Shown: piece after piece, positions 1-40,338 of the stretch
How positions within the stretch are numbered: the first letter of the stretch is position 1
How the letters are laid out: the number at the start of each line of letters is the position of its first letter
IMG/VR virus record: IMGVR_UViG_3300027996_003878
Direction: 5' to 3' (one strand)
DNA length: 64,000 bases
Origin: a virus
Lineage: Duplodnaviria > Caudoviricetes
Notes under the pieces: generated by a model
Database searches by the model: none
What the model was told of the DNA's origin: nothing
The model's input: only the letters and a program-made list of their open reading frames with translations
Program-made: the position numbers and the translations under genes

Positions 1-291
1 TGTTTCATGACAGCTTTCTAAATATTCATTACTGTATGAGGCTCTTCTTTTGAAATCAAAGCTATAAAAAACAATACTACTTGAGGAGGCAACAATTACA
101 TTGTCTTTATAAATACATATGCCTCTTAGCCCTCTATCAGCCCCTCGGCCACTCCAATTTATTTTCTCATTCCAATCTATGACGCATTTATATTTATTAG
201 AATTTAAATCAACTAAATATAACCCGCCATGGCTAACTCTTTTCGCGCTACGCACTATGTGGCTTGCTATAATATTTGGATATTTTTTCAT
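1..291 (-). CDS. Hypothetical beta-propeller-like protein, truncated at the window edge (not in the ORF track)
   Basis: Hand translation from ATG 291 (ATGA overlap with the sulfotransferase stop): MKKYPNIIASHIVRSAKRVSHGGLYLVDL...GRGADRGLRGICIYKDNVIVAS...CHET, open for 97 codons to position 1. The RGLRGI pattern suggests a propeller blade. Confidence 0.6.
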   Translation of the reverse strand, partial: MKKYPNIIASHIVRSAKRVSHGGLYLVDLNSNKYKCVIDWNEKINWSGRGADRGLRGICIYKDNVIVASSSSIVFYSFDFKRRASYSNEYLESCHET

Positions 292-1025
292 TTATTTTTT
301 ATACTTAAGTATTTATCTTTCAGCTCCCGATCAATCACTTTTACCTCATCACTAGAAAGTAAAGAAAAGCTCTTATTCGAAGGCTTAAGTCTAGCGCTAG
401 TATTTGCAGAAGCATTGCCATACCTATAATTAGTTTTATTAACTACATAATTACCCTCAGCCTTAAAGGCTTCCGATCTAGAATTTATATAACTTAATAC
501 CCCTGAACTGCCTGCATCACAAAACTGCTCTAAAGTTAATTTAACAACAGGTTTATTTAAAGATTTAATTTTATTAAAATAGTGATTGTAATCATATATC
601 AACCTTTCAACAGGCATATAGCTATTTCTATTCATTGATTTTGCCAGCCTTATAAAGCTTTCAAATAAAGCCTTGGGCTCCCTGAATACAGCTACAATTA
701 TATCTGAATTGTCAATTACATGATTTAAATATTTAAGCATTTTTGGGTCTTGAGGTCTATAAGTCTCCTTAACACCTCCAAATAAAAAACTATCGCTCTC
801 TACCCTTCTTTTAACCCCACTCATCAAATCATCAATTCCATTAAATTTGAAATGGATTAGCTTATCAAATGTTAATTGACCAGGGTTTGATAGCAAAATC
901 CAATGAGGCTCTGACAAACAAAAGCCATTTTTCATTGAATTAAATGTATTACAAGCAATAGTTGTTCCTGAATGAGGCAAACCTAAAACAGATATAACTT
1001 TATTTGACTTTAAATTTAGTCTCAT
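288..1025 (-). CDS. Sulfotransferase-family protein
   Basis: N-terminal 5'-PSB loop VLGLPHSGTT and 3'-PB-like VFREP; 245 aa. Confidence 0.75.
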   Translation of the reverse strand: MRLNLKSNKVISVLGLPHSGTTIACNTFNSMKNGFCLSEPHWILLSNPGQLTFDKLIHFKFNGIDDLMSGVKRRVESDSFLFGGVKETYRPQDPKMLKYLNHVIDNSDIIVAVFREPKALFESFIRLAKSMNRNSYMPVERLIYDYNHYFNKIKSLNKPVVKLTLEQFCDAGSSGVLSYINSRSEAFKAEGNYVVNKTNYRYGNASANTSARLKPSNKSFSLLSSDEVKVIDRELKDKYLSIKNK

Positions 1026-1570
1026 ATCGACGCCACTAAAATGTCATTCTTAAAAATAGTTTTCTTAAGCTTAGGATCTAGATACCCATGCTCATAATGA
1101 AACTGGTAATTTGGATTTATATCCAAGAGCAACGTTTTGACTTTATCGAGAGAAATATCCCTCCACTCACCGCCCATAAGTCGAACATCATCAACCAAAA
1201 TGGTATGATTTTTATTTGAATGATTTTTAATTAAATTAAGCTCTTGGTACAAGGGAACATCAACCGGACCTCTAGCCGTATCTCCCTCACTCCAATGGCC
1301 GTCTAGCCAAAAAACACAGGGCTCCGTCACCTTACTTAATATTTCTTTTAATTTAACAGCAGAATCGCCAAAGATAGGAAAAACTTTTCGATCATTAGCA
1401 AATCTATTGAGCGCTCTCTTATAAAAATGATCAGCTAACTCAATGGTATAAACCTCACGAAACCCAACAGCAGAGGCCATCGCTGCCGTATTACCAAGGT
1501 GAGTACCAGTCTCAACAAAAATATTCCCTTTACTCTTGTACTTTCTCAATGTTTCCAAATCAATAGGCAT
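1022..1570 (-). CDS. Class I SAM-dependent methyltransferase-like protein
   Basis: FVETGTHLG motif I, FWLDGH and ILVDD motifs, as in glycan-cluster methyltransferases. Confidence 0.65.
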   Translation of the reverse strand: MPIDLETLRKYKSKGNIFVETGTHLGNTAAMASAVGFREVYTIELADHFYKRALNRFANDRKVFPIFGDSAVKLKEILSKVTEPCVFWLDGHWSEGDTARGPVDVPLYQELNLIKNHSNKNHTILVDDVRLMGGEWRDISLDKVKTLLLDINPNYQFHYEHGYLDPKLKKTIFKNDILVASI

Positions 1571-1579
1571 AATAAGCTC

Positions 1580-2572
1580 CTAACGTAATCCAACTAATTT
1601 TAGCAATTCGTTTATACGACTTTGATATGTATGCTCAGCGAGCACCTTGTCACTGCCCGACTTTCCAATGAAATTAGCCAAATCGGGGTTTTTAAGTAAA
1701 AACTTTAGCTTGGGTATTATGTCGTTTACAGAATCCACAATACATAAATCACAATCGTTAGTGAAATATGACTCCCACTTTGGAAATGCAAGTGAGATAG
1801 TCGGCCTGCCCGATGCCATACACATCAGCAACCTGTCAGAAAAGTAATGTGAAATTTCATTAAAATGACTTATACTTAACAAGCAAAAGCTCCTACGATA
1901 TTCGTCTCCAACTTTACTCTGAGCAATCGACCCTTTAGATTTAAGTTGTCTAGGCCAATTAGAGCCATATAAAGCAAATCTATTACCAAAAGTAGATTTT
2001 AAAAGCCTGCAAGCTTCTTCTCGCTCTTTTCTACCCGGATAATTTTCTTTTAAATCATTATTACCTACAAAAATTATATCATATTTAAACTGACTGGGAG
2101 TTTCGTTTTCGCTACAATAATATAAATTTGGATCAAATCCAATTTGCCAATAATAAGCTTTCTTACCAATCGCATCCTGAAAAAATTTCAACTGACCAGT
2201 TGAAGATATTAAATTATAATCCGCAACCCTTGCAATTGATTTAAAGCTGGGCGGTACGTAAGATCTTACATCGCCAGTCCAGTTAGTAATTATAGTATTT
2301 GGCAGCTTTGACTTAATTTCACTAATTGTACCCGCATCAATGGTGTTCAAATGCTGAAGCTGTATGTGCATCAAATCGGGCTTAAATCTCAAAGCCTTAT
2401 CAACAAGCATACGTCGTATTTTATGAACTGTATGTCTTTTTTGATAAAGCTCATACAAGTAATCAAAAATTTCTAATTTTACTCCCGCGCCTCTAAACGC
2501 ATCGTAAACGCCCCGTTGAATCACGTCACCAATTCAACCATAGTTAAGGGGCAAATATAAAACCTTAACCAT
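1580..2572 (-). CDS. CgeB-like (GT-B) glycosyltransferase; likely true start ATG 2572 with an in-frame TGA at codon 13
   Basis: DIIFVGN, YFSDRLLMCMASG and AEHTYQSRINELL are CgeB/Glyco_trans_1_2-like. The frame upstream of GTG 2524 reads MVKVLYLPLNYG*IGDV, with AGGAGG 8 nt before ATG 2572. Confidence 0.7.
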
Positions 2573-2580
2573 GTTCAGCA

Positions 2581-2586
2581 CCTCCT
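2581..2586 (-). promoter_or_regulatory. Shine-Dalgarno AGGAGG for ATG 2572
   Basis: cctcct on the + strand, 8 nt spacer to the ATG. Confidence 0.7.
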
Positions 2587-2617
2587 TTCTCTTGCAATAT
2601 TAATGAAATAATATTAA

Positions 2618-3349
2618 TTATACCTTTAACCAATTTGGCGGTATCAAGTCTTTTGTATTATGAGTATAACGAAGCTTAGGACCAAACCAGCAAGAAGGAG
2701 CTACAACCTTCTTGCCCTTCGATTTAGACAAGAAGGCTCCCCACCATGAAAAAGATGAGTTCGCTATAATAAAATTTGAACAACTAATCATATTTGCTAG
2801 ATCGATGACTGGGCGCCTTTCCTCAGAAAAACTAAACTGATTGCCAATAAAATTCTTCTTACACCAAGATATATCATCGGAAAATATTAAATAATTTTTA
2901 CTATCACAGACCTCCATTGCTTTTTCATAATAATTATTTTTGCTTAAAATATTATAACACCCTTCATGAATTAAATAATCAGTGCGTCGCACGTGAAGTG
3001 CTGTATATTTATTAAAATTAGATTTTATCTTTGGACTTAAAAGTTTTTTTATTATATTAGAATGATCTTGCCAATATTTATAAGATTGAAAGTAGCCGCT
3101 TAAATTTAACAACTTGCCATTTGAATTGGGAATTGCTCGATAATGAAAATGTGGCTCTAAGTAAATCTGAGAGCGTTGAATTTTTTCAGAAAATTTATCG
3201 CTAGGTATACTAAAGTGATCGGCATATTTCCAACTAGGTAGAATCCAGTCATCACCATAATACAATGCCGCTCCTATAACGCCACTTATTTGAAATAACT
3301 GATTGCCAAGCTGACCCTTTTTGCCTAGCTCTTTAAATGTAAACGTCAT
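2618..3349 (-). CDS. GT11 alpha-1,2-fucosyltransferase-like
   Basis: GQLGNQLFQ, ALHVRRTDY, IFSDD and IIANSSFSWWGAFL are hallmark GT11 motifs. Confidence 0.9.
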   Translation of the reverse strand: MTFTFKELGKKGQLGNQLFQISGVIGAALYYGDDWILPSWKYADHFSIPSDKFSEKIQRSQIYLEPHFHYRAIPNSNGKLLNLSGYFQSYKYWQDHSNIIKKLLSPKIKSNFNKYTALHVRRTDYLIHEGCYNILSKNNYYEKAMEVCDSKNYLIFSDDISWCKKNFIGNQFSFSEERRPVIDLANMISCSNFIIANSSFSWWGAFLSKSKGKKVVAPSCWFGPKLRYTHNTKDLIPPNWLKV

Positions 3350-3355
3350 AATGCT

Positions 3356-4099
3356 CTATAAGGATTCTAATCTTTGGTAACGTGGTTTAGAGCGAATATA
3401 GCGATCCATCGCCCCTTGCCTTTGCAAAGCAATGCGAAAGTCAGAAATCGGATTTTCATTATTATACATGTACAGTACATCATGTATATACCTACCATGA
3501 TGACCGCCCATTTCTACAAATGGAATGTAGAAAGATAAATCCCATGCGACATCAAGAAACTTCCCGCTGGGATCATAAAAGTCTTCTTTCTTTATCTTCT
3601 TGAAAAGTTTTGCATAAAAAGTACGCAAATGAGACGTACACCAAGGGTGATGTCTATAGATATTCAAATCAATAACGTTACGAGGTATAGGCGCACTACA
3701 GCCTCTTTGATTGTTTGGATAATTTAAATAAGAACCCCATGTAAACCAAACATCTGGATTAGAATAGATGCTGTTTATCTTTTCACAGACATTCTCATGA
3801 GCAAACCAATCATCGCCATCAAGAGTAATTATAACATCATCATCATTACAAGCATGAATCATATTATATAAATTACACATTGCACCAAGACGACGCTTAT
3901 TTTTAATTAATTCAAAATCAACGTCGATATTATTAGACTTTAAAAAGTTTTCAACTTTATCAGCGGTCCCATCAGAAGAGCAGTCATCAGTGTACACGAC
4001 CTTTAAATTTTTATAATTTTGTGTAACAATTGAAGATACGTTTTTCTCACACCATTTAATGTTATTATAACTAGGAACAACCACAACAATATTTTTCAT
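3356..4099 (-). CDS. GT2 glycosyltransferase
   Basis: VVVVPSYN, DDCSSDGT and LDGDDW (DxD). Confidence 0.9.
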   Translation of the reverse strand: MKNIVVVVPSYNNIKWCEKNVSSIVTQNYKNLKVVYTDDCSSDGTADKVENFLKSNNIDVDFELIKNKRRLGAMCNLYNMIHACNDDDVIITLDGDDWFAHENVCEKINSIYSNPDVWFTWGSYLNYPNNQRGCSAPIPRNVIDLNIYRHHPWCTSHLRTFYAKLFKKIKKEDFYDPSGKFLDVAWDLSFYIPFVEMGGHHGRYIHDVLYMYNNENPISDFRIALQRQGAMDRYIRSKPRYQRLESL

Positions 4100-4152
4100 A
4101 ATTTCCTTAAACTTGTTATTTATAGGATATATCAGAACTATTAAGAGGTATA

Positions 4153-5109
4153 ATGTCCAGCCCTAAACTAAACATAAATATAATTTATTCGCCTCAAAAA
4201 AGAGGCCCCCACGTTATCTTTGAAAACAAGCTTGCAAAGGTATACAATAGTAAAACTTACGATCAAAAAAAAATAAACATTGGAATGGGTTGGTACTCAA
4301 TTCGAAACCCTAAGGCTGGCGATAGCTTAATTGTAATAGAGCCTCGATGCGTTTTAGAAAGAGATTATAATCCAAAGTTTATATCGAAATATAAATATAT
4401 ATTTACATGGGCAACTAAGGCATTTAATAATATCAAGCTCCCGAATACAAAAATTATTGAGGTAAATCACCCCTGCGCGCATAGCAAAATAAACATAAAT
4501 AATCTTTCAAAGAAGTGGACTCCCTGGCAACAAAGGGAGAATGAAGTTGTTTTCATTGCAAATAACAAATCGTCCCCTCACATCTCACAACTTTACACAT
4601 TAAGAGTGAAGCTGGCTGATATGTTTCACCATCAATCTAAGATGAAGGTATCTTGGTACGGTCAAATACCGCTAAACAAGCCTTATTACAAAGGAACTGT
4701 AAAGTCTAAATTTGACGTCTTGTCTAAGGCAAAATTTACAGTATGCTCTGAAAACTCTTATCACAAAAAATACTCCCACAATTACTTTACAGAAAAGCTG
4801 CCCGACGCTTGGAAAGGCGGAGCGGTACCTTTATACATGGGTTGTTATAATATAGACGATTTTAAATTCCACCCCGACTCTTATATAGATTTAAGAAAAT
4901 ACGTTAAAAAAGATTTTACACCACAAAGCAAATATCATGAAATTGATAAGAAGCTAGTAAAGTTAGTAGATAACTTTACGGAAAATCATTATAAAAAATT
5001 AATAAGACAAGTTAAGCTTGAAGCCGAGAAGCCAAAAGGACTTAACCACATTGTTAGTTATGATAGATTTTACGAAAAAATAATAGAGACAATGTTAAAA
5101 GATAAATAA
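4153..5109 (+). CDS. GT10 alpha-1,3/4-fucosyltransferase-like; the only convincing plus-strand gene
   Basis: KFTVCSENS...YFTEKLPDAW..GAVPLYMG matches the GT10 ENS/TEK motif. Confidence 0.75.
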   Translation: MSSPKLNINIIYSPQKRGPHVIFENKLAKVYNSKTYDQKKINIGMGWYSIRNPKAGDSLIVIEPRCVLERDYNPKFISKYKYIFTWATKAFNNIKLPNTKIIEVNHPCAHSKININNLSKKWTPWQQRENEVVFIANNKSSPHISQLYTLRVKLADMFHHQSKMKVSWYGQIPLNKPYYKGTVKSKFDVLSKAKFTVCSENSYHKKYSHNYFTEKLPDAWKGGAVPLYMGCYNIDDFKFHPDSYIDLRKYVKKDFTPQSKYHEIDKKLVKLVDNFTENHYKKLIRQVKLEAEKPKGLNHIVSYDRFYEKIIETMLKDK

Positions 5110-5122
5110 TATTATACCGCCG

Positions 5123-7306
5123 TTATAAGATATTAAATTTATCCAAAACTTCATTGTTATATTTATTTATTTCATCCTTATTATGGAAGCAATTTTTGTT
5201 ATTTTTTATTTTTGAAATATCATCTATCAAAGAATCAAGACCATTAAACTTATCTTTATTCAAATAAACTGTATTAGATTTTTGCTTTAAATACAAGTTA
5301 GACGTCAAAATAGGAATTTTAAAGAAATTAATCATATTCATAAATGAAGATATATAGTTAACATTATTATCTATATCTAAGACAAATTCAGCCATTTGAA
5401 TCACATAAAGCAATTTTTTATATGGCATATATTCGTTTACTGACTGTATAAAGCTCGGATAAGCGCCCCTTCCTCCAACTAGGACAATTTTCGGATAGCT
5501 ATCCTTCCAGTTACGAATCACAAAGTCCAAAGATTTATCATCCCTGTAAAACATAAGTACATACTTATTGTTTTTAAAATATTTATCTTTCGTACAAGTC
5601 GTCGCGAACAAGGGCTTACATTTCAGATGCACCCTTGCGTCTGGGCAAATTGTCTTCAATAACTCAAAATTTTCTAAACAAGGAGTGTATATGACTTTAC
5701 TTTTTTTAAGCACCTCCAATTGATCTTTCGACAATGATATTTTATCAAAAGAATCGACCCAAATATGAGAAGAGGGAACCAACATGCCGACTTCGCCAAT
5801 CAATAAAGAGCCTTTACTTAGACCATTACTCGCATTTAATAACTTCAAGTTAGGGCAAAATGCTTTTAATTTATTATAATAAAGAAATCCAGATGGGGTG
5901 GTCACCGCAATATTATTATTAAATTTAGTGAACTTTATATCTGAATCAGGAATGTAATATCTTGCAAAGAGTTTTGAAGTTGCATAAATTAAATCATCGT
6001 TATATTTTTTACTTACAAAGTTATCTATATTAGATTTTTCAAATATTTTTGAAGACAGAGGTGATATTATCGAGCTATCTAAAGAAGGAATGGCGTGTGC
6101 ATACGTAACTTTTCCATCATTTGCAATAGTAACCCTTGCGATGACGATATCCCCTGAACTCCTCTGCGCCTCTCTTTTTATAAATAATTTAAATGGCGGG
6201 ACTGCATTGCCAGAAGAAAGCTCTGCATGCGCATGAAGTTTACATTTAGCCTCTTTTAATTGAGGAGAAAGGCGGAATGACTCTGAAGTAATCACTCTAT
6301 TAGAGCGATCCATAATACCTACTTCTATAAAACCATTTCCCGTTATTTTCTTTGCAAGAAAATTTACTGTATAATACAAACCCGCCGATAAGGCAGGTAT
6401 AGTTTGTCTTATCAAGGCTCCGCGAGACATGCAAAGGCTTGACTTATTGTTTACATCTAAAAGCCGAACAAGACTTGATGTGACCGCACTGGCATTTAAA
6501 GCTTTTAAGCCATTAGAGTCTACTGTGTCGAAGATAACGCCCACAGGCACCTCTGACATGGTTCCTAAGAGCAGGTCTCTGCCGTATCGCTGCACTTTCC
6601 CACCAGAGCCGCCTGAGCCCTCATTAGGCCGCCTAACGCTCGGGGTTGGCTTGTTTCTATGTTTAAATATGTTTTGATTATTCCTTCTGCGAGCCGGGGG
6701 AGCCTTAGCGCCAGAGCCAAGAGAATAAGATAACACTTCACATGAGCCTAAAAAAACCAAGCGACTGCCGGATTTTTTATACATATTTGCAGGTCTCGTT
6801 TTCAAAACAATATCAGCATAACACCCATCCAAATAAGCGCCATGGCTTGCAAATAACCGACCATTAGAGACTTTTAAATTTTTATAATGCTTACAATACG
6901 AAAGTAACTCCTTCCAATTACCCTCAGACTTAGCCTCATTCTTCACAAAATACAAATTCACTTCTATTAACTTAATATCACCAGAGCTGTGCGCTGTTCT
7001 TGATAATTCAAAAGATTTAAAATTAGAAAAATCTGGCTCTATTATCTCCTGAGATTTCGATGATACAACATGATTTTTATTATGAATGCCGCTATTTTTA
7101 AATTCTGTAATTTTAAATAATCCATTTCCCGATTTGCGAGAGAATACCAAATCACAGCGCTCAATCTCACCCACGCCGCTAAAGTTGAACTTTAACCTTG
7201 CTGCCTTTCCTTCCAGGAGGCAACCGTCATTATCGAACCTACAAGATCTGTAAGAGGTAATAAAACTTTTAAGATGCAAGCCAGTGATTTGTTTTATACT
7301 AGTCAT
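5123..7306 (-). CDS. 727-aa protein: N-terminal beta-rich region plus C-terminal degenerate GT-B-like domain
   Basis: C-terminal KIVLVGG...AEFVLD...FKIPILTSN resembles GT4-like C-domains; basic Pro/Gly linker near aa 200-240; lies inside the GT cluster. Confidence 0.45.
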   Translation of the reverse strand: MTSIKQITGLHLKSFITSYRSCRFDNDGCLLEGKAARLKFNFSGVGEIERCDLVFSRKSGNGLFKITEFKNSGIHNKNHVVSSKSQEIIEPDFSNFKSFELSRTAHSSGDIKLIEVNLYFVKNEAKSEGNWKELLSYCKHYKNLKVSNGRLFASHGAYLDGCYADIVLKTRPANMYKKSGSRLVFLGSCEVLSYSLGSGAKAPPARRRNNQNIFKHRNKPTPSVRRPNEGSGGSGGKVQRYGRDLLLGTMSEVPVGVIFDTVDSNGLKALNASAVTSSLVRLLDVNNKSSLCMSRGALIRQTIPALSAGLYYTVNFLAKKITGNGFIEVGIMDRSNRVITSESFRLSPQLKEAKCKLHAHAELSSGNAVPPFKLFIKREAQRSSGDIVIARVTIANDGKVTYAHAIPSLDSSIISPLSSKIFEKSNIDNFVSKKYNDDLIYATSKLFARYYIPDSDIKFTKFNNNIAVTTPSGFLYYNKLKAFCPNLKLLNASNGLSKGSLLIGEVGMLVPSSHIWVDSFDKISLSKDQLEVLKKSKVIYTPCLENFELLKTICPDARVHLKCKPLFATTCTKDKYFKNNKYVLMFYRDDKSLDFVIRNWKDSYPKIVLVGGRGAYPSFIQSVNEYMPYKKLLYVIQMAEFVLDIDNNVNYISSFMNMINFFKIPILTSNLYLKQKSNTVYLNKDKFNGLDSLIDDISKIKNNKNCFHNKDEINKYNNEVLDKFNIL

Positions 7307-8072
7307 CGCCTTTATTTATATATAGTGACTTTACTCTATTAGCGTACAATCTGCAATTTTCATAAAATTTTGCCAAATTATCCTGATGAGCTTTTGTCTT
7401 AAACTCTCTATACTCACCGCGATCATTTTCACCTTCGCCAAGATGCACGCCATTCTCTTTTAAATACCCAAGGCGGAAGCCTAAGACCCTCGTCCGCATT
7501 CCCCAATCACTATCCTCCATTCCATAATACTTATAATCATGCTCATTAAAATATCCCAACATTTTATGTAAAGATTTATTAAAAACCATGCAAGCGGTCC
7601 CTAAATTACCCTGAGGTTTGTCCTGAAACTCAAACCCGTTTTTACTCACTAAGGTATAGTCAACATGCTCAAAATTAACCCCAATGGATCCATATTGAGG
7701 GTTATTTTTTACAATTTCAATGCAGTCAGTAAGCCAATTATTGGGAACAAGGACATCATTATCAATTGTAGCATACCAAGTTGTGTCTAAATCATTAGCC
7801 AAACTTAGCGCTTGGTTTCTAGCAATGGCAATTCCTTTATTTTCATTATTAAAATGAACTACCAATTCATTCAGACTGTCACAGCCAGGCTTAGTTTCAA
7901 TAAGTTCTTTTAAATATTTTATTGTATCATCTTTTTCAGAAAAATTATCAATTATAACAAGATTAAATGGGTGATTTGTTGTTTCAAACAAATTAGCCAA
8001 CATTTTTTTTGTCAAATCTAGACGATTAAATGTTACCATCATTACAGTTGCAATGTCTTTCATATTTTTCAA
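7299..8072 (-). CDS. GT2 glycosyltransferase
   Basis: MMVTFNRL, IIDNFS, NKGIAIARN, IDNDV and EDSDWGMR. Confidence 0.85.
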   Translation of the reverse strand: MKNMKDIATVMMVTFNRLDLTKKMLANLFETTNHPFNLVIIDNFSEKDDTIKYLKELIETKPGCDSLNELVVHFNNENKGIAIARNQALSLANDLDTTWYATIDNDVLVPNNWLTDCIEIVKNNPQYGSIGVNFEHVDYTLVSKNGFEFQDKPQGNLGTACMVFNKSLHKMLGYFNEHDYKYYGMEDSDWGMRTRVLGFRLGYLKENGVHLGEGENDRGEYREFKTKAHQDNLAKFYENCRLYANRVKSLYINKGDD

Positions 8073-8076
8073 CCTT

Positions 8077-9054
8077 TTATTTTTTTAAAAAGAGATCTGC
8101 AATTTTATTAGGCGATAGATCTCTGCTAGTGTATATAACATTTTTATTTCCTAAAAATGTATTGTTCTTATTTAAATTAAAAGAAGTTTTTTGCGGTAGA
8201 GATATTAATCTACCACTCGATACAGCATTTGATACTAATAAATAATCTATTTCCTTCGAAAGGACCCCCGAAGCTTTTTTCAATAATATTAAAATAAAAC
8301 TCCATTTAAAGGGACAAACGACCGCTGAACTGTACAAATATGCTGATTTTTTATTAGAAATAATGACAGCCTGCACCCCTCCTTGCTTTAGAAAGGCCAC
8401 AAACGAACGCAATTGATTCAAGCTCCACCTCAAGCACTGCTTATTATGAATCGAATAGCCCGTAACATCTGGAAAAATCACTACGAACGGCTTTTGCGGG
8501 CTAAACTTATTTATCTTAGCCCAGCTGGCAAAGCCTTTACATGAATTGAAATTAAGATTCCTAAACTTTGGAATGAACTTATTGCTCCAATCAACAAGAC
8601 CATTGCTAACTATTTGTTTAATCAAACAGATAGGGTTTTTAAAACTCCTAGTGCTTGCTATAGACTTTGCTTTTAGGTAATTATTTAAAGAATTAAAATA
8701 AACATTTCTTTTTTTATCTAGAAAAATAGGCGCAGGATATTTTTTCACCAAGTCTTTTAAAGAGCTGTCTGCCTGATCTGAAACAATACCTTGCAATTTG
8801 ACTAGTTCAAAAAAGCAATTTTCGCCGGACCAACGCAAGGATGAATTAGGAAAATTATAATTCAACATCTCTATTATAGCCAGTGAGTAAAAAGACTCTA
8901 AAGCGCCCCCATGAGCTATAATAGTTATCTTCTTTTTATCAATTATTTCACTCAATAGATCATAATCAATTTTTGGCGCTATAATCCCACCCTTAACTTC
9001 CCACGGAATCCCCGGAGAAAAGGGCAAATATTTAATTTTAGGACTTGACTTCAT
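8077..9054 (-). CDS. Divergent GT9 (heptosyltransferase)-like fold protein
   Basis: HGGALESFYSL, FVVIFP and LKKASGVLS loosely follow the GT9 layout; position in the cluster. Confidence 0.4.
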   Translation of the reverse strand: MKSSPKIKYLPFSPGIPWEVKGGIIAPKIDYDLLSEIIDKKKITIIAHGGALESFYSLAIIEMLNYNFPNSSLRWSGENCFFELVKLQGIVSDQADSSLKDLVKKYPAPIFLDKKRNVYFNSLNNYLKAKSIASTRSFKNPICLIKQIVSNGLVDWSNKFIPKFRNLNFNSCKGFASWAKINKFSPQKPFVVIFPDVTGYSIHNKQCLRWSLNQLRSFVAFLKQGGVQAVIISNKKSAYLYSSAVVCPFKWSFILILLKKASGVLSKEIDYLLVSNAVSSGRLISLPQKTSFNLNKNNTFLGNKNVIYTSRDLSPNKIADLFLKK

Positions 9055-9853
9055 TATAGCAGGGATTTTCTAAATACTTATGATAATCAATCACATACTT
9101 CCCTAGCCATTTTTCCTGAAAAAATCTAACATTATGAGACAAAAACATCTTATTTACAGGGTTTTTGTTTAACGATGCAGATGTCTTGTGCTCAATGTTA
9201 GTCGAACCGCAGCACACAACTTTTTCCTTTTGATTGATACTAATTTCTAAATTTAGATCTATATCCTCAAAGCTCCAATGTAAGTTTTTATTTAACTTCC
9301 CCGCCTTTTTATAACTGGAAGCCTTTACAAGACAACACGCAGCTGTGACCGCTTGAAAATATCTATTTTTCCTATCAAAAGAGCCCGTGCTTTCATGTGA
9401 CTTGATGTGCCAAGGCATATTTCCATGATTTCTGGAAAAAGCTACACCACAATGGCTTATTAAGTTTGTGTCAGGGAATAGAATTCTAGCACCACAGATT
9501 GCAGAATTTGTTTTAGACATTAAATCAATCATATTTGATATAGAAGCATCATCACAAAAACTGATATCATTATTTAATAATAAAACTAAATCATCGTCAC
9601 TTACACCAGACTCATCAAATAAAGAATTTACACCGACAGAAAAATTATCTCTATTGTGATCTTTTTTCAATAAATGAATTTTAGAAGAGCCTTTGCTCCA
9701 TTTGCTTATTTCATCAGGAGAGCCGTCCTTGCTCCCGTTATCACGAATCCACCAATTCCAATCAAATTTACTTAAGTTCGCCTCAAGCCCAGGCTTAAGC
9801 TTTTTAAGCATATCAAGGCCATTCCAATTTAATGTAAGTGCAAAAATCTTCAT
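9038..9853 (-). CDS. GT2 glycosyltransferase
   Basis: ALTLNWN, DNGSKDGS, LLLNNDI, AVTAAC and EDIDLNL. Confidence 0.85.
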   Translation of the reverse strand: MKIFALTLNWNGLDMLKKLKPGLEANLSKFDWNWWIRDNGSKDGSPDEISKWSKGSSKIHLLKKDHNRDNFSVGVNSLFDESGVSDDDLVLLLNNDISFCDDASISNMIDLMSKTNSAICGARILFPDTNLISHCGVAFSRNHGNMPWHIKSHESTGSFDRKNRYFQAVTAACCLVKASSYKKAGKLNKNLHWSFEDIDLNLEISINQKEKVVCCGSTNIEHKTSASLNKNPVNKMFLSHNVRFFQEKWLGKYVIDYHKYLENPCYNEVKS

Positions 9854-9869
9854 CTTTCAAACCCCTCAA

Positions 9870-10565
9870 TTAAACTCTTCCAGACCACTTGTCTGTAAAA
9901 ATTCTTTTCGCACCTTGATATAGCTCGCTAACACCCAGCTGATGGGCAGTTATGTGTCCAAAATGGATGACGGGAATCGGCACAAGTCTAAAGCCAATAC
10001 CTATTTCAGATGCCCTAAAACTTAAATCTGTATCCTCAAAAAAAGCAATACCAAACTCTTCACTAAATACCTGGCCATCCTTTGTCAAATCTAATTTATT
10101 CCAAGTATTTTTAGACGCACCAAGACACCAGCCACTCATATAATTAATAGGGCGACTTTCATCATTTGTTTCATATACAAAATCAAAAGTTTCAGAGACT
10201 AGCCCCCCTGTTGGACCAACCAATACATCATTCTCTTTATCTATAGCGTCAATCAGATCATCAACCCAAGAATCTCGACGTGACTTAACCCTTATGTCGT
10301 TGTTAAGAAATAAAACAGACTCTCCGCTGGACTCACGATAACCTCTATTACAACCTTTGGCGAAACCCTCATTCTGATCATTGCGTAAATACAATATATT
10401 ATTGTACCCCGAAAGCTCTCTGTGAGTTTGGTCTGTACTGCCGTTGTCCACAACTACAACCTCGCAATAATCAGGAAGCAACGCTAAATCCTTCAAACAA
10501 GCCTGCGTAAAATTAAACTTATTCCAAACAGGAATAACAATGCTTATCTTATATTTTTTATCCAT
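9870..10565 (-). CDS. GT2 glycosyltransferase (start re-assigned to ATG 10565)
   Basis: MDKKYKISIVIPVWN, VDNGSTD, NEGFAKGCN, FLNND and EDTDLSFR. The upstream 23 codons overlap the GT4 gene. Confidence 0.85.
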   Translation of the reverse strand: MDKKYKISIVIPVWNKFNFTQACLKDLALLPDYCEVVVVDNGSTDQTHRELSGYNNILYLRNDQNEGFAKGCNRGYRESSGESVLFLNNDIRVKSRRDSWVDDLIDAIDKENDVLVGPTGGLVSETFDFVYETNDESRPINYMSGWCLGASKNTWNKLDLTKDGQVFSEEFGIAFFEDTDLSFRASEIGIGFRLVPIPVIHFGHITAHQLGVSELYQGAKRIFTDKWSGRV

Positions 10566-10566
10566 A

Positions 10567-11688
10567 CTATACCTCGCATAAGGATAACATCTGACTCGCC
10601 ACATTATCCCAAGTAAATTTATCAACCGTCTCACTCATAGCCGAGCTAAATTTTTCTTTTAAAGCGTCAAGGTTATCAACAGCATATTTTAACTTAGAGG
10701 AAGCGTCTTCTAGATCTGGAACAAACATTTTTGCGTAAACACTAGGCGTCCAATATTGATAATTCTTTGGACACCTACCTTCTTTTCCAGATACTAGCAA
10801 TGAATTGCGATCATTCATAAAATCTAAATTTCCACCATTATTTGAAGCTATGACAACATTACCAGCCGCCATACCCTGTAAGCTAGGTATGTGAAAGCAC
10901 TCTATGTTAGAGAGCGAAAAATGAATATCACAAGTCAAAAAAAGAGACTCTATATTATCGATATAATCATAAATAACTTCAATATCTGCATGATTTGGAT
11001 TTTTCCTTTTCCATCTTTTAAAAAGATCAGAAAAACTCAACTCAAAAGGTTGCATGGGTTTTTTATTCACAACCTTTAGGACCAAGCAAACATCATCTTT
11101 TTTTGTAAAAGCTCTATTATAAGCATTCAAAATGCCTTCTAGATTCTTTCTTCTGTGAGCCTGACCGCATACATTTAAAATTTTTACTTTTTTATTTGTT
11201 TTTAATTTGTAAAACTGATCATCTGGCAACTCAAAGTCATCTTTATTGATGCCATGATGTATCACAGCCAACTTGCCTTTAGGGATATTGTTGTTTAAAA
11301 AAATATTTTTAGAATATTCTGATGATGGAAGTAATTTATCTATGAAATTATGATACTTCGCCCAACCCTTAGGTATTACAGAGCCATCGTAATTATAAAT
11401 GCCAAATCTATTTTTGGCTCCGTGAGATAAATAAGCAGGAAAATTATGCATCGCAGTATAACTAAACTGCATGTCGTATTCTTTGTATTTATTTAATAAA
11501 TATTTATCAACACCTTTTGATCTAAAGCCAAGTAAATTTGGCTTTAGATCTTCAGGAAAATGCTGAATACCGTTGGTAGACATAAGATGAACATCATGAC
11601 CCAACTTTATAAATGCCCTTGCAAGATTTCTCCCTACGACCGACCAGGAGTGGTTCTTACCAAGAAATTGTTGCGATATTATTCTCAA
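10567..11688 (-). CDS. GT4 glycosyltransferase
   Basis: HHGIN, RRKNL and ECFHIPSLQGMAAG (E-x7-E motif with the second E replaced by Q), then VIASNNGG. Confidence 0.85.
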   Translation of the reverse strand: MRIISQQFLGKNHSWSVVGRNLARAFIKLGHDVHLMSTNGIQHFPEDLKPNLLGFRSKGVDKYLLNKYKEYDMQFSYTAMHNFPAYLSHGAKNRFGIYNYDGSVIPKGWAKYHNFIDKLLPSSEYSKNIFLNNNIPKGKLAVIHHGINKDDFELPDDQFYKLKTNKKVKILNVCGQAHRRKNLEGILNAYNRAFTKKDDVCLVLKVVNKKPMQPFELSFSDLFKRWKRKNPNHADIEVIYDYIDNIESLFLTCDIHFSLSNIECFHIPSLQGMAAGNVVIASNNGGNLDFMNDRNSLLVSGKEGRCPKNYQYWTPSVYAKMFVPDLEDASSKLKYAVDNLDALKEKFSSAMSETVDKFTWDNVASQMLSLCEV

Positions 11689-11719
11689 ACCTCAGCCTAA
11701 CAAAAAAGATCATATTAAT

Positions 11720-11759
11720 AAAAATAATAAGAGCGCATAGCAACAGCCGCGCTCTTATT
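11720..11759 (-). terminator. Intrinsic terminator-like hairpin between the structural module and the GT cluster
   Basis: 11-bp stem aataagagcgc (11726-36) / gcgctcttatt (11749-59), followed on the minus strand by ATTTTT. Confidence 0.7.
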
Positions 11760-11814
11760 TGACCCTTAATATTTTAAGGAAAGAAAAATATCTCGATAAA
11801 TTTAATTTAAATTT

Positions 11815-14757: not shown

Positions 14758-14762
14758 AAAAC

Positions 14763-17700
14763 TTATTCTATATAATCAAGCGTAGCCTTGGATTGAGCGG
14801 GCTTCAACGACTCAATAAGGGTTTCAAGTACTTGTTTTGTTTTATCATTACCCAAAACTATACCAAAAGAATCTAAGATTTTTATGGTAAAGTTAAATAT
14901 ACCGAAATTTTCATTTATCAATATAGCTATATCATCAGTTTTAGATATTAAGGTATTAAAGTTTAATAAATATGTAGTAAACACATCCTCTATGACAGGA
15001 TATACAATTGATCTGTTACTACTGAAGTTAATATCTTTAGGCTGACCAGCTACCGTAAAAGTGTTTCTTGATATATTGCTCAATCTTAAATTATCAAATC
15101 TCGCCTGAGCCAAATTTGCTGAAAAGATATCAGATCCAACGAAAAACTCATTTATAACATCTTTAAAATTTAAATCGGCAGTTAGAATAGAGTTATCTAC
15201 ACCCGCAAGACCTTGACCAAAAACGGCCCCTTGTCCAAATAAAAGACCACTCCCGAAGAGTACAGTTCCTTTTTCTTCTCCATCTACAAACAATCTAATT
15301 TCATCTAAGTTGTCTTTTCGATTAAACTTATATGTAGCCATAATTCTGTGCCACGTATTACGCGACCAAAAAACTGGCTGCCTTACTTGATAATCAATAT
15401 CATTAATGCGAACATTAAAGGTTATGAACCCAGCCTCATCTTTGTAGATAGAGATTCGGTCTCCAACCACACCGCTTGGTACATAATAAACTTTGACAGG
15501 TGTATTTTGAAAAGGTAACGCTTGCCCTAAATTTATTGTTTGAAAATCACTCGCAAGCTCTCCGCCTACAAAGTAATTCACGCCAGTATTATCTGTATCT
15601 GTTTGTAATCTAACGCTTAATATTCTCGAAGCACGGCCGGACAATTTCACAGAAGCTGATGTTAGACTAACTGACTCCTCTATCACTGAGCTGCTTGCAT
15701 CAAAATAAAACCTTCTATTTGGATCATTTGCTGTATCAAACTTTGGACTTACCCAAAATTCTATACTTCCCTCTGAAGCTGTTGACAAAAACCCTTTATT
15801 ATCAACAATTAAAGGATCTTTTCCAACAACCAAGCTTTTTTCAAATCTAGAGTTTACACTTGAGCTTGACTGTAAAAATGTTTTATCTGCTGTAATCCAA
15901 AAATCTGAATCATTTACAAGCGGCAATGAATCAAAATGAAGCAACATTAATGTATCACTATTTGGCTCAAAGGGCCTTAAGCTGGTAAAATCAGTTGTAA
16001 TGTAATCTACATTATCTTCTACCGGCTCGCCTACACGAATATCTGTCAGCGCCTTTGATAGTATTCTAAACTCATCAATAACAGCATTTGCCTGATTTCT
16101 CCCATAAAGGTCTGACCCAACAAAAGCTTTTTCATTTGAAAGCGGATTGAAGTCCACCTGTAAATAAGTTTGAAAATCAAACTCAAACAAACCTTGATTT
16201 AAAGTCCATGGCGTATTTACAGATCCAGCCTCTTCAAGCACAAAGAATCCGTTTTGAAAGCCGCTTCTCCCAATACTGATATTAAAAATATCATAAGAGC
16301 CACCTGAAAAAGCAACCGGAGGAGCCGGAGAAAGCCTTACGCTATTGGTATCTATCCGGCTAGAAATTGTATAAGTACCAGCTGCCGCTGGCGGTGAGTT
16401 AATAACGAGAGCATTTCCGACCATCGAATCTGTGAAATAGCCCTGATTGTCAGTTACAATATCCGTCAAACCATCGCCAAACAAATTACTGCCAGCCTGC
16501 ACCTTATACGCAAACCTAATTATAGGAAATAAGGAATTGCCATTTGGCTCTGTTATTGAAAATGCCTCTCTTACCTCTACAGAGATTGTATCCCTAGATG
16601 GGACAATCGGAGTTGACTCGACATCAATCGAAGATATTGTTAAAAATTTATTTACAGTATCTAACGTGGTTGGCGATGTGAAAGTCAACGTTTCAAAAAC
16701 AGGGCCACCGGCCGTTGTTCCGTTAATTGTGACTGTAGGAGGATTCGTGAAGTCAACATTACTACCCGTTATTCTTACTGCTAAAATTCTGCCCTCAATA
16801 CTGTTGGAAGGCTGACTTGCAGTGAGCCCAGTTGCAACATAACGACCCAAAACTAAAGTTGCATTTGAAGGGCCTATAGCTTCTAATGGAAATAATATTG
16901 ATATTATTTTTGTTTCATTTAAATTTATAGGTGGAGGTAATTGTGTTTTAAAAATGCTTGTAGTGTTACCCCAAATGTATGACTTATCGCGGGCTCTCCT
17001 GAAATTAAGACCCAGCGTGCGTATTGCGATTTGATCTCCAGCACTAACATCACCAAGAATTGTTAAAACATTTTGCAACAAAGCGTTCTTGCTGATTTCA
17101 TATGCCGGCAACACCGCATCAGGTCCAGGAAGCTCTGTCTCAATGCCACCGCTAATTTTTGTCACAATAATATTCTTATAAAGATCAATATCAGTTGAAA
17201 CAACTGAGGAAAATTCATTTACTGAAAATCTAGCATCCTCTAGGCTAGAGGGCATAGGGCTGTCCAATGTAAGAACATTGTCACTAATAGCCAATATTGT
17301 ATATGTAAAAAATCCTGGTTCTTTTATGCTTATTGTATTTCCCGGAACTATACCCTGAGCGCCAAAATTAATTCCATCGGATATTACAATATCTGAACCA
17401 ACAACAGTATTTAAATCAGCTCCAGTTATAGCATTGGCGGGCACGGGGGTTAGAAGCAGTTCGGGCTTTACGGTTCTAAATCTATCACTAGAGGCACCTA
17501 TAGGCCTACCGCCATATCTCATTATATTAGGAACTTCTTGCCCATCTATAAATAAATGCATCTCATCCTGGCGCTCCAATGTATTAAGCTTCCAGGTAGT
17601 TGCAATATGATGTTTCTCTCCCGCCTTCCAGTCTTGAATGTCTGCGCTTATTTTATATACATTTTTTCTATTTTTAGTAGGACCGCCCTTATCATAAACT

Positions 17701-24640: not shown

Positions 24641-24729
24641 AATCTAACCTGCAATACCTTTATTAATAAAGTTTATACTTACCTGCCCGCCACCTATATA
24701 AATAAATATATATAGAACAGAATAACCAA

Positions 24730-40263: not shown

Positions 40264-40338
40264 TTTTCACCTTCTTGTATTAAAAATATGAACAATAAAA
40301 ATTATAAATTATAATCTTTATTGCTATAGTATATAACA

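What the first reader, a model, noticed from the sequence alone, without database searches (positions are those of the whole stretch)
1..11688. Phage-encoded complex glycan assembly cluster directly downstream of the tail genes
Seen: about 10 glycosyltransferase-like genes (GT2 x4, GT4, CgeB-like, GT10, GT11, two degenerate GT-B) plus a sulfotransferase and a methyltransferase, co-oriented with and just after the baseplate genes. Established: some mycobacteriophages glycosylate virion proteins with their own GTs, and giant viruses build complex virion glycans. Inference: this phage builds a branched, fucosylated, sulfated and/or methylated glycan, probably for the virion. Host-surface remodelling or DNA hypermodification are alternatives. 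No nucleotide-sugar synthesis, flippase or polymerase gene is visible, which fits cytoplasmic sequential transfer.
Basis: partly seen in the sequence, partly recalled or inferred. Interest (0 to 1): 0.7.

Follow-up and report, generated by a model that had tools for sequence, protein, structure and literature searches.

The report
Huge-phage glycan factory beside tail fibres
An uncultured 296-kb marine phage carries about 20 tightly packed genes for building a fucose-containing, sulfated and methylated sugar chain; related huge phages keep the same gene core right after their tail-fibre genes, so the sugar probably coats the virus particle, though this has not been shown.

Summary
Window 1-11688 (minus strand, one gene on plus) holds ten glycosyltransferases. 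These are four GT2, one GT4, GT10, GT11, a CgeB-like enzyme, a GT9-like GT-B, and a 727-aa protein made of two carbohydrate-binding-type beta-sandwiches plus a GT4-type GT-B domain. It also holds a sugar-type SAM methyltransferase and a sulfotransferase-fold protein.

The cluster runs off the window start. The phage's own 295,897-bp contig adds a second sulfotransferase, Gmd, an Fcl-like GDP-fucose synthase and two more sugar-nucleotide dehydratases/epimerases, and then TubZ.

All enzymes look soluble. A complete 458-kb relative has no lipid-carrier initiating transferase, flippase, polymerase/ligase or ABC-2 exporter, but it does have an APS kinase.

The island sits in the same slot, after the dockerin-bearing about 980-aa fibre gene, in all seven other contexts that reach that far. 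A core (GT4, GT9-like, CBM-GT, CgeB-like) is conserved in six of them and the outer part varies: Kdo/sialyl-type, perosamine-type, GT6, pyruvyl.

A virion, probably fibre, glycan is the best reading (about 0.45) but is unproven. The kind is known from cyanophage, giant-virus and mycobacteriophage systems, and this scan has reported similar islands on other DNA. I rate it a new variant of a known kind.

The parts
1..291 (-). First 97 codons of a 309-aa protein of unknown function (weak beta-propeller-like hint). The gene runs off the window. Beyond it on the phage's own contig (L010 coordinates) lie sulfotransferase 11673-12368, SDR 12394-13314, Gmd 13327-14313, Fcl-like 14333-15265 and RmlB-like SDR 15281-16234, then TubZ 16231-17634.
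   Evidence: A homologue is present in relative G001 (42% identity).
288..1025 (-). Sulfotransferase-fold protein, 245 aa (P0001). 5'-PSB-like loop GLPHSGTT and 3'-PB-like R-x7-S (REPKALFES).
   Evidence: No significant Pfam or PDB sequence hit. Atlas features 0.97 and TM 0.71 to sulfotransferase clusters. R115 and P117 are invariant in 19 homologues.
1022..1570 (-). Small class I SAM methyltransferase, FkbM/CmcI-like (sugar O-methyltransferase type), 182 aa (P0002).
   Evidence: Atlas TM 0.84 to an FkbM family cluster and 0.75 to rhamnosyl O-methyltransferase/CmcI. No Pfam or NCBIfam hit.
1580..2572 (-). CgeB-like GT-B glycosyltransferase. The ORF runs 1580-2524 from a GTG start. An in-frame 12-codon leader (ATG at 2572-2570, Shine-Dalgarno 2587-2579) is cut off by TGA at 2536-2534.
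   Evidence: Pfam Glyco_trans_1_2, 5.6e-22. Leader and stop are present in six assemblies and absent in relatives.
2618..3349 (-). GT11 alpha-1,2-fucosyltransferase-type enzyme, motif HVRRTDY.
   Evidence: Pfam 3.2e-20 and PHROG 2644 1.6e-53; motif.
3356..4099 (-). GT2 glycosyltransferase (GT2d).
   Evidence: Pfam 1.7e-18.
4153..5109 (+). GT10 alpha-1,3-fucosyltransferase-type enzyme, the only plus-strand gene. Motif SENS..YFTEK. Lowest GC of the window (0.31).
   Evidence: Pfam 8.9e-07, above cut-off; motif; GC. Same inverted orientation in relative G003.
5123..7306 (-). 727-aa modular glycosyltransferase (P0003): beta-sandwich 1-205, CBM6/CBM4-like beta-sandwich 250-398, GT4-type GT-B 460-727. 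No Pfam family.
   Evidence: AlphaFold2 with 66 sequences, pLDDT 85. Z 15.0 to PimA and Z about 12 to CBMs. Tandem-CBM matches in Foldseek. 194 cluster representatives in the family.
7299..8072 (-). GT2 glycosyltransferase (GT2c).
   Evidence: Pfam 1.9e-16.
8077..9054 (-). GT9-like GT-B protein, 325 aa (P0004). Conserved at 31-35% identity in five relatives.
   Evidence: Atlas TM 0.67 to a GT9 cluster; alignment A3. No PDB sequence hit.
9038..9853 (-). GT2 glycosyltransferase (GT2b).
   Evidence: Pfam 2.9e-08.
9870..10634 (-). GT2 glycosyltransferase (GT2a). Gene callers start it at 10565 (231 aa).
   Evidence: Pfam 2.4e-20; gene call.
10567..11688 (-). GT4-type GT-B glycosyltransferase, the first gene of the island and conserved in all relatives.
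   Evidence: Pfam Glycos_transf_1 6e-07 and PHROG 2170 2.5e-26. 44-46% identity in G001, G003 and G004.
11726..11759 (-). Terminator-like hairpin (11-bp stem, then a T-rich run) between the fibre gene and GT4.
   Evidence: Fold -31.2 kcal/mol, z -3.4; coordinates. Analogous hairpins in G001 and L022, none in G003 or G004.
11815..14757 (-). 980-aa dockerin/EF-hand-bearing fibre-type protein with 13 DGY tripeptides. It is the conserved upstream neighbour of the island and the candidate acceptor.
   Evidence: Pfam Dockerin_1 4.6e-09; DGY count. A homologue precedes the island in every relative.
14763..21401 (-). 2212-aa fibre/baseplate-distal protein, which follows the baseplate J gene at 21401-24640.

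Best explanation
The region is the first two thirds of an island of about 17.9 kb and 20 genes. In the infected cell's cytoplasm the island makes activated sugars and adds them one at a time to build a complex hetero-oligosaccharide or polysaccharide.

Shown at gene level:
- Gmd and an Fcl-like enzyme can make GDP-L-fucose from host GDP-mannose.
- Two further SDR enzymes can make other modified sugar nucleotides.
- Ten soluble glycosyltransferases, including alpha-1,2 and alpha-1,3 fucosyltransferase types, can add sugars.
- A sugar-type methyltransferase and two PAPS-type sulfotransferases can decorate the product.

Inferred: relatives share a constant inner part of the glycan, made by the conserved core (GT4, GT9-like, the CBM-CBM-GT protein, CgeB-like). 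The outer part differs from phage to phage, as an O-antigen does.

Inferred, and the weakest step: the acceptor is a phage-made, outward-facing virion protein. The most likely one is the dockerin-bearing fibre encoded immediately upstream, so the particle leaves the cell with a fucosylated, sulfated coat. The tandem carbohydrate-binding-type module of the 727-aa enzyme probably holds the growing glycan or glycoprotein while the catalytic domain extends it.
For: 1. Enzyme identities.
2. Operon-like packing.
3. The island occupies the same slot, directly after the about 980-aa dockerin fibre gene, in the window phage, G001, G003, G004, G008, L022, L023/L024 and L025. This holds even where the 727-aa family is only 21-25% identical. 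The core GTs (GT4, GT2a-c; 41-52% identity) have diverged about as much as the fibre (41-60%) and TubZ (51-56%), while P0004 (32-33%) and P0003 (24-29%) have diverged more. This points to vertical inheritance with the virion module, not a sporadic moron.
4. A core kept across such divergence argues for a constant, phage-supplied acceptor.
5. No transmembrane protein was found among the 20 island genes here or the 65 ORFs of three relatives' islands, apart from one N-terminal anchor.
6. No Bac_transf or MraY/WecA-type PGT, Wzx, Wzy/WaaL or ABC-2 permease was found in a CheckV-complete 458-kb relative, with positive controls ringing.
7. The N-terminal tandem beta-sandwich module is re-used with other catalytic domains (GT2+GT6) in other members at the same locus. 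That is as expected for a shared acceptor-binding module.
8. The outer part is hypervariable. G001 has formyltransferase, DegT, KdsA-like, CMP-sugar synthetase and a GT29 sialyltransferase type. L025 has GT6 and a pyruvyl transferase.
9. Precedents for cytoplasmic virion glycosylation by virus GTs are the mycobacteriophages (Freeman 2023, as cited in PMC12619734) and the chloroviruses and mimiviruses (my own knowledge).
Against: - No glycan has been observed on any particle, and the phage is uncultured.
- A terminator-like hairpin lies between the fibre gene and GT4 here and in two relatives.
- The last SDR gene overlaps TubZ by 4 nt. The island may therefore belong to a non-late transcription unit.
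- The 16-mer found upstream of two structural genes is absent before the island.
- The published reading of comparable jumbo-phage and cyanophage clusters is host-surface remodelling (PMC7824862 section 3.4.10; PMC12801897).
- The closest structural matches of the GT-B domain (PimA, PglA, WbnH) act on lipid-linked acceptors, although the fold is generic.
- The window phage's own full genome could not be scanned for export genes.
Confidence: 0.45

Rival explanations
1. Host envelope remodelling. The soluble phage GTs extend or re-decorate host lipid-linked intermediates (O-antigen, capsule or glycoprotein-glycan precursors on undecaprenyl phosphate). The host's own flippase and ligase then export them. 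This changes the cell surface to block superinfection or grazing during a long or pseudolysogenic infection.
For: - This is the standard reading of P-SSM2-type clusters and of jumbo-phage 'capsular polysaccharide modification systems' (PMC7824862 section 3.4.10; PMC12801897).
- Gene content is similar: GT10, GT11, GT2, epimerases, and KdsA/KdsB in G001.
- The island is translationally coupled to TubZ, which that review links to pseudolysogeny.
- The GT-B domain resembles PglA, WbnH and PimA, which use lipid-linked acceptors.
Against: - No initiating transferase, flippase, polymerase/ligase or ABC-2 exporter was found in the islands or in a complete relative.
- The core is lineage-wide and fixed next to the fibre gene, rather than sporadic.
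- A ten-GT pathway that depends on host-specific intermediates should not stay conserved across such divergence.
Confidence: 0.25
2. Another acceptor. The island makes a free or secreted sulfated fucose-rich polysaccharide, a glycolipid or a small-molecule glycoside. This could be a protective or adhesive matrix released at lysis, or a decoy. Nothing is attached to the virion or the cell envelope.
For: - All enzymes are soluble and no acceptor is identified.
- CBM-type modules on a GT suit polymer handling.
- Sulfotransferases together with a phage APS kinase in a relative suggest bulk sulfated glycan.
Against: - It does not explain the strict linkage to the fibre gene.
- No synthase-type processive membrane GT or exporter was found.
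Confidence: 0.15
3. DNA hypermodification. The GTs build a glycan on a modified base of the phage genome to evade restriction.
For: Phage GTs related to LPS enzymes, including heptosyltransferase-like ones, do glycosylate 5hmC. Such clusters can lie near structural genes (bioRxiv 10.1101/2023.12.21.572611).
Against: - Known DNA glycans are mono- to trisaccharides, whereas this island has ten GTs.
- Fucosyltransferases, a sugar O-methyltransferase type, sulfotransferases and CBM modules do not fit a DNA substrate.
- No C5-methyltransferase, TET/5mYOX or hydroxymethylase lies in the island.
Confidence: 0.03
4. Assembly artefact. A bacterial LPS/capsule locus was wrongly joined to a phage contig.
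For: Only this: GC is slightly lower at 4001-6000 (0.31 against about 0.36).
Against: - The identical arrangement occurs in contigs from ENA, JGI and Logan, up to 296 kb.
- It is syntenic in relatives.
- Gmd is 66-68% identical to the phage relatives' copies but at most 58% to any cellular genome found.
Confidence: 0.01

Closest known systems
'LPS' or cell-wall synthesis/modification clusters of large T4-like cyanophages (P-SSM2, S-SCSM1, S-SCSM2R) and the jumbo-phage 'capsular polysaccharide modification systems' of Iyer et al. 2021 (PMC7824862; PMC12801897)
   Same: - Large myovirus-type phages.
- Runs of paralogous GTs, including GT2, GT10 and GT11, with 1-4 NAD-dependent epimerase/dehydratases.
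- KdsA/KdsB in some members.
- Content is polymorphic between relatives and the function is unproven.
   Different: - Here a GT core is lineage-wide and locked to the slot after the distal fibre gene.
- It includes a Pfam-less CBM-CBM-GT family, two sulfotransferases and, in a relative, APS kinase.
- There is no sequence-level match of GT4 or the 727-aa protein to any GenBank phage.
- The cyanophage clusters are described as sporadic.
Giant-virus virion glycan machinery (chlorovirus PBCV-1 capsid glycans with virus GMD/GMER and the multidomain GT-methyltransferase A064R; Mimivirus/Megavirinae fibril glycan clusters). This comparison rests on my own knowledge.
   Same: - Virus-encoded soluble GTs plus the GDP-mannose dehydratase / GDP-fucose route.
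- Sugar methylation.
- Clade-specific variable clusters.
- Cytoplasmic assembly on virion proteins.
   Different: - Those are eukaryotic viruses whose glycans have been solved. Here no product or acceptor is known.
- Sulfation and the CBM-tandem GT are not features of those systems as far as I know.
Mycobacteriophage virion O-glycosylation (Che8, Corndog, Myrna; Freeman et al. 2023, cited in PMC12619734 and PMC12801897)
   Same: Phage GTs, with a methyltransferase in some, act on virion proteins in the cytoplasm, and the glycan is exposed on the particle.
   Different: - Those systems have 1-4 genes, siphoviruses, and capsid and tail-tube C-termini as targets.
- Here there are about 20 genes with their own sugar-nucleotide supply, next to fibre genes, and no shared sequences were detected.
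Bacillus subtilis spore-crust glycosylation (cge and sps genes, CgeB). This comparison rests on my own knowledge.
   Same: A CgeB-family GT-B works with GT2 enzymes and sugar-nucleotide SDRs to glycosylate a protein shell assembled inside another cell's cytoplasm.
   Different: It is a cellular differentiation system. Only the Pfam family PF13524 is shared.
'Moraphages', aquatic jumbo phages up to 307 kb with four glycosyltransferase orthogroups in their core genome (PMC12619734)
   Same: Aquatic jumbo phages of about 300 kb with T4-like tail modules, in which GTs belong to the conserved gene set. The authors leave the target open: DNA, host or virion.
   Different: Membership of this phage in that lineage was not tested, because no sequences were at hand. 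The paper does not describe the locus, its linkage to fibre genes, or the fucose and sulfate chemistry.

Membership tests
Bacterial Wzx/Wzy- or ABC-dependent O-antigen/capsule locus | Initiating phosphoglycosyl transferase (Bac_transf PF02397 or MraY/WecA-type PF00953) | tested here: not met
   No multi-pass protein in the island or in three relatives' islands. No match in complete relative G001 or in four partial relatives, with controls ringing. The window phage's own full genome was not available.
Bacterial Wzx/Wzy- or ABC-dependent O-antigen/capsule locus | Flippase (Wzx), polymerase/ligase (Wzy_C) or ABC-2 exporter | tested here: not met
   PF01943, PF04932 and PF01061 are absent from G001 (complete) and the other relatives, with controls ringing. 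Hydropathy scans are negative.
Bacterial Wzx/Wzy- or ABC-dependent O-antigen/capsule locus | Several GTs together with dedicated sugar-nucleotide genes | tested here: met
Virus-encoded cytoplasmic virion-glycan machinery (chlorovirus/mimivirus/mycobacteriophage type) | Soluble virus-encoded GTs without signal or membrane anchors | tested here: met
   Maximum 19-residue Kyte-Doolittle hydropathy is at most 1.71 for every island protein.
Virus-encoded cytoplasmic virion-glycan machinery (chlorovirus/mimivirus/mycobacteriophage type) | Virus-encoded sugar-nucleotide synthesis (GMD plus GDP-fucose synthase, as in PBCV-1) | tested here: met
   Gmd scores 443 bits against the TIGR01472 cut-off of 415. 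Fcl-like is the best full-length match at 240 bits, below the cut-off of 500.
Virus-encoded cytoplasmic virion-glycan machinery (chlorovirus/mimivirus/mycobacteriophage type) | Glycan demonstrated on a virion protein | not testable with these tools
   The phage is uncultured and no proteomic or staining data exist.
Virus-encoded cytoplasmic virion-glycan machinery (chlorovirus/mimivirus/mycobacteriophage type) | Genetic linkage of GT genes to virion genes | tested here: met
   The island follows the dockerin fibre gene in 8 of 8 contexts that reach that far.
Mycobacteriophage virion O-glycosylation (Freeman 2023) | Sequence relationship of the GTs to the Che8/Corndog enzymes, or to any GenBank phage GT | tested here: not met
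   tblastn of GT4 and of the 727-aa protein against 50,697 phage records found no match at 1e-5. Only two of the ten GTs were tried.
DNA sugar-hypermodification gene cluster (Pyle et al.) | C5-methyltransferase plus 5mYOX/TET (or a hydroxymethylase) beside the GT | tested here: inconclusive
   None in the island by Pfam or NCBIfam. The Tet_JBP search of relatives was negative, but the control rang nowhere.
GT11 alpha-1,2-fucosyltransferase | Pfam PF01531 above cut-off and the HxRRxDY motif | tested here: met
   73 bits against 23.9; HVRRTDY. Activity was not tested.
GT10 alpha-1,3/4-fucosyltransferase | Pfam PF00852 above cut-off and the (F/S)ENS...Y-x-TEK motif | tested here: met
   29.2 bits against 23.9; SENS..YFTEK.
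PAPS-dependent sulfotransferase | Sulfotransferase domain with a 5'-PSB loop and a 3'-PB R-x7-S motif | tested here: met
   For the off-window 231-aa protein: PF00685 at 31.8 bits against 22, with PRSGSNW and RNPDDVIYS.
PAPS-dependent sulfotransferase | The same features for the in-window 245-aa protein (288-1025) | tested here: inconclusive
   Pfam gives only E 0.19 and there is no PDB sequence hit. Fold and feature matches (TM 0.71, score 0.97) and the motifs PHSGTT and REPKALFES support it. The His in place of Lys/Arg in the PSB loop is unusual.

The most novel reading that the evidence does not exclude
The island is the missing 'writer' for the Asp-Gly-Tyr tag that other reports of this scan found enriched on the outer tail proteins. 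The conserved core would attach a glycan (or one of the sulfotransferases a sulfate) to the tyrosine of DGY motifs on the fibres. This would give a whole lineage of huge phages a virion 'O-antigen': a constant inner core and a strain-variable fucosylated, sulfated, methylated outer part. It would be an undescribed protein-glycosylation system with its own sequon, a CBM-tandem targeting module and a phage-encoded PAPS supply.
Probability: 0.15. Interest if true: 0.85.

Novelty: new variant of a known kind. Interest (0 to 1): 0.58.

Why it matters
If the product is on the particle, this would be the most elaborate virion glycan machinery known in a bacteriophage. It has ten transferases, its own GDP-fucose route and its own sulfation. 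Its layout resembles a bacterial O-antigen locus, with a conserved core and a variable outer part, and it is inherited together with the tail fibres across a widespread lineage of huge aquatic phages. That would point to selection on the phage's own surface chemistry, for example masking from host defences or grazers, or sticking to sulfated-glycan-rich marine particles.

It also defines a large Pfam-less enzyme family (CBM-CBM-GT, at least 194 clusters at 50% identity) with swappable catalytic domains. The finding gives a concrete test bed: fibre plus core GTs expressed in E. coli. If instead the host surface is the target, the lineage-wide conservation would still be unusual for such clusters.

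Tried and rejected
- Megablast of the region, and tblastn of GT4 and the 727-aa protein, against GenBank phages gave no match.
- No whole genome is held for the window, and the phage itself is not in IMG/VR. PGT, flippase and APS kinase could therefore be searched only in relatives.
- The single-sequence fold of the 727-aa protein failed (pLDDT 32). It succeeded with a 66-sequence alignment.
- PDB sequence searches gave nothing significant with the sulfotransferase-like protein or its 19-sequence profile, the methyltransferase, the 309-aa protein, or the profiles of the 727-aa and 325-aa families.
- The word-index homologue search of the 727-aa protein found only itself. The exhaustive search was needed.
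- The sigma-70 promoter and terminator scan was at chance level and missed the 12-nt-loop hairpin.
- The Tet_JBP search was uninformative because its control did not ring.
- No complex prediction was run. An enzyme-substrate pair picked by neighbourhood is a poor use of that test.
- Gmd neighbours in cellular genomes (Planctomycetota, Omnitrophota, Acidobacteriota; 50-58% identity) are too distant to name a host or donor.
- Freeman et al. 2023 could not be read here. It is cited only through papers that cite it.

Full report
**What is in the window**

All ORFs of 1-11688 lie on the minus strand except one. They follow, in transcription order, a baseplate J gene (21401-24640), a 2212-aa protein and a 980-aa dockerin/EF-hand-bearing fibre-type protein.

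Pfam places eight genes in glycosyltransferase families above the curated cut-offs:
- GT4-type at 10567-11688
- GT2 at 9870-10634, 9038-9853, 7299-8072 and 3356-4099
- GT10 at 4153-5109 (plus strand)
- GT11 at 2618-3349
- CgeB-like Glyco_trans_1_2 at 1580-2524

PHROGs agrees for five of them. The fucosyltransferase signature motifs are present (HVRRTDY; SENS..YFTEK).

**The four Pfam-less genes**

Other methods resolved all four.
- 1022-1570 is a small class I SAM methyltransferase of the FkbM/CmcI sugar-O-methyltransferase type (Atlas TM 0.84 and 0.75).
- 288-1025 has a sulfotransferase fold (TM 0.71, feature score 0.97). It has a PSB-like loop PHSGTT and an R-x7-S motif, with R115 and P117 invariant in 19 homologues. 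No sequence-based search reaches significance.
- 8077-9054 is GT9-like (TM 0.67).
- 5123-7306 (727 aa) failed as a single-sequence fold. An exhaustive HMMER search then found 194 cluster representatives, mostly about 700 aa. With 66 of them, AlphaFold2 gave pLDDT 85.

For the 727-aa protein, residues 460-727 are a GT4-type GT-B (Z 15.0 to PimA, rmsd 3.7, 256 aligned; also PglA, WbnH and a chlorovirus GT). Residues 250-398 are a CBM6/CBM4/CBM36-like jelly roll (Z about 12). Residues 1-125 are another beta-sandwich. Both sandwiches carry an invariant G-N-G loop.

**The cluster runs off the window**

An exact-sequence look-up found the phage's own contigs (ENA 295,897 bp, JGI 120 kb, Logan and others; 24 contigs read). 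Past window position 1 lie:
- the rest of a 309-aa unknown protein
- a 231-aa sulfotransferase (PF00685 31.8 bits against cut-off 22; PRSGSNW and RNPDDVIYS motifs)
- four SDR genes

Among the SDR genes, one is Gmd at equivalog level (443 bits against 415). One is the best full-length match to GDP-L-fucose synthase (240 bits, below cut-off). One is GalE/RmlB-like and one RmlB-like.

The last SDR gene overlaps TubZ by 4 nt. A DEAD-box helicase follows.

The island is thus about 17.9 kb and 20 genes, and it supplies its own GDP-fucose for the GT10 and GT11 enzymes.

**It is phage DNA, not a misjoined bacterial locus**

- The same arrangement recurs in independent assemblies.
- GC is homogeneous apart from a dip at the inverted GT10 gene.
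- Gmd is 66-68% identical to the copies in related phages but at most 58% to any cellular genome retrieved.

**Relatives**

Baseplate J retrieved eight IMG/VR contigs at 49-59% identity. In every contig that extends far enough (G001, 458,729 bp and CheckV-complete; G003; G004; G008), GT genes lie about 11-15 kb downstream of baseplate J.

Fetching and BLASTing these regions showed the same order: 2200-aa protein, about 980-aa dockerin fibre, GT4, GT2, GT2, GT9-like, GT2, the 727-aa family, CgeB-like, a variable part, SDR genes and TubZ.

Three look-ups of distant members of the 727-aa family (21-25% identity, or sharing only the N-terminal module) again landed directly downstream of a dockerin fibre gene with GT4, GT9-like and CgeB-like neighbours. 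One of these is a 419,687-bp NCBI metagenome-assembled contig.

L023 has the core without any GT2. L022 has ribonucleotide reductase genes inserted in the middle. G004 has a reduced island (GT4, two GT2, an anchored 328-aa protein, one SDR) and no 727-aa member.

The outer part differs strongly between phages:
- GT10, GT11 and an extra GT2 occur only here and in G003.
- G001 has about 35 genes, including a formyltransferase, DegT aminotransferase, FkbM and other methyltransferases, a KdsA-like DAHP_synth_1, a CMP-sugar synthetase, a DHDPS-family enzyme and a GT29 sialyltransferase-type gene.
- L025 has GT6, GT11, a pyruvyl transferase and a UDP-GlcNAc 2-epimerase.

In several members the N-terminal tandem sandwich module is fused to GT2+GT6 instead of the GT-B domain. 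It therefore behaves as a portable acceptor-binding module.

**Where the chemistry takes place**

No island protein here has a hydrophobic stretch typical of a membrane helix. Neither do 64 of the 65 ORFs in three relatives' islands; the exception is one N-terminal anchor in G004.

The complete relative G001 and four partial relatives have no Bac_transf or MraY/WecA-type initiating transferase, no Wzx, no Wzy/WaaL-type protein and no ABC-2 permease. Positive controls rang in 9-14 reference genomes.

G001 does encode an APS kinase (E 9e-69). An unchecked note of this scan reports one in the window's own genome too. Sulfation therefore appears to be provisioned by the phage.

This fits sequential transfer by soluble enzymes in the cytoplasm.

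**What the target is**

The sequence does not settle this.

For a virion protein, most simply the adjacent fibre:
- The GT core is linked to the fibre gene across the whole lineage, and its divergence is comparable to that of the fibre and TubZ.
- A core that stays constant while hosts must differ needs a constant acceptor.
- The design of conserved core plus variable periphery is typical of exposed glycans.
- There are precedents in mycobacteriophages and giant viruses.

The adjacent fibre carries 13 DGY tripeptides against 0.2-0.3 expected, and its homologues carry 7-10. Two of the 13 sit in dockerin calcium loops (DVNGDGYIT), so part of the enrichment is structural. G004, with the reduced island, has fewer (3-4 per fibre). 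That is a single observation.

Against the virion reading:
- A strong terminator-like hairpin lies between the fibre gene and GT4 here (-31 kcal/mol, z -3.4), and also in G001 and L022. G003 and G004 have only 26-37 nt there.
- The island's far end is coupled to TubZ.
- A 16-mer found twice, exactly, upstream of structural genes is absent before the island.
- The literature reads similar clusters as host-surface modification (PMC7824862; PMC12801897).

DNA glycosylation is unlikely given ten GTs, fucosyltransferases, sulfation and CBM modules. Known DNA glycans stop at trisaccharides and need a methylase/TET pair. No such pair lies in the island, and the genome-wide check was inconclusive.

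**Comparison and novelty**

The kind is known: virus-encoded glycan assembly. This scan has already reported fucose/sulfate islands in other large phages (e1-3497782, e1-3489893, e1-5410884), and another window of this same genome covers the same stretch. A 2025 paper notes four GT orthogroups in the core genome of aquatic 'moraphages' without analysing them. Whether this phage belongs there was not tested.

Four points are new here:
- the fixed slot next to the fibre gene
- the conserved four-to-seven-gene core with an O-antigen-like variable periphery
- the Pfam-less CBM-CBM-GT family with swappable catalytic domains
- the phage-side sulfation supply

I class it as a new variant of a known kind, with interest 0.58.

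Noticed in passing
window 2534-2587 (minus strand): The CgeB-like gene has a strong Shine-Dalgarno (AAGGAGGTG) and an ATG 48 nt upstream of the called GTG start, in frame. They encode a typical first beta-strand (MVKVLYLPLNYG), which is then cut off by TGA at 2536-2534. The 9-nt stretch holding the stop is missing in relative G003 and present in all six assemblies of this phage. TGA ends 5 of 39 window genes, so recoding is unlikely. Either the enzyme lacks its first strand or translation re-initiates.
   Followed up: partly
window 11726-11759; L015 9650-9734; L022 2369-2514: Terminator-like hairpins lie directly after the dockerin fibre gene in three of six lineages. They may act as attenuators that lower expression of the enzymes relative to the fibre. 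A similar hairpin lies at about 40290-40330.
   Followed up: partly
window 24694-24709 and 56579-56594 (minus strand): The exact 16-mer ATATTTATTTATATAG occurs twice. Both copies are intergenic and upstream of structural genes (baseplate J; the gene at 56067-56573). With up to 3 mismatches there are 12 matches against 4.6 expected. It may be a phage promoter element.
   Followed up: partly
window 11815-14757 and 14763-21401; homologues in L015, L017, L019, L022, L023, L025: The DGY tripeptide is enriched 20- to 50-fold in the dockerin fibre and its homologues, with tandem runs (DGYDGYDGY; DGYVEDGYGDGYG). Two copies are ordinary dockerin calcium loops. G004, with a reduced GT island, has the fewest.
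   Followed up: partly
L022 4515-7192: In one distant relative, ribonucleotide reductase small and large subunit genes are inserted in the middle of the GT core, between two GT2 genes.
   Followed up: no
L018 12809-13348 (G003): In relative G003 the homologue of the small methyltransferase lies after TubZ, so TubZ is embedded in the island there. Here TubZ overlaps the last SDR gene by 4 nt (L010 16231-16234).
   Followed up: no
L019 14803-15789 (G004): A 328-aa protein with a very hydrophobic N-terminal segment (Kyte-Doolittle 2.9) and no Pfam hit replaces the GT9-like gene in the reduced island. It is the only anchored protein seen in any island.
   Followed up: no
window 60263-60848: A 586-nt stretch called as 'intergenic' contains open reading frames that the 100-aa ORF list missed, including a cold-shock-domain-like sequence (KGKVVWFNVKAGYGFI).
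   Followed up: no
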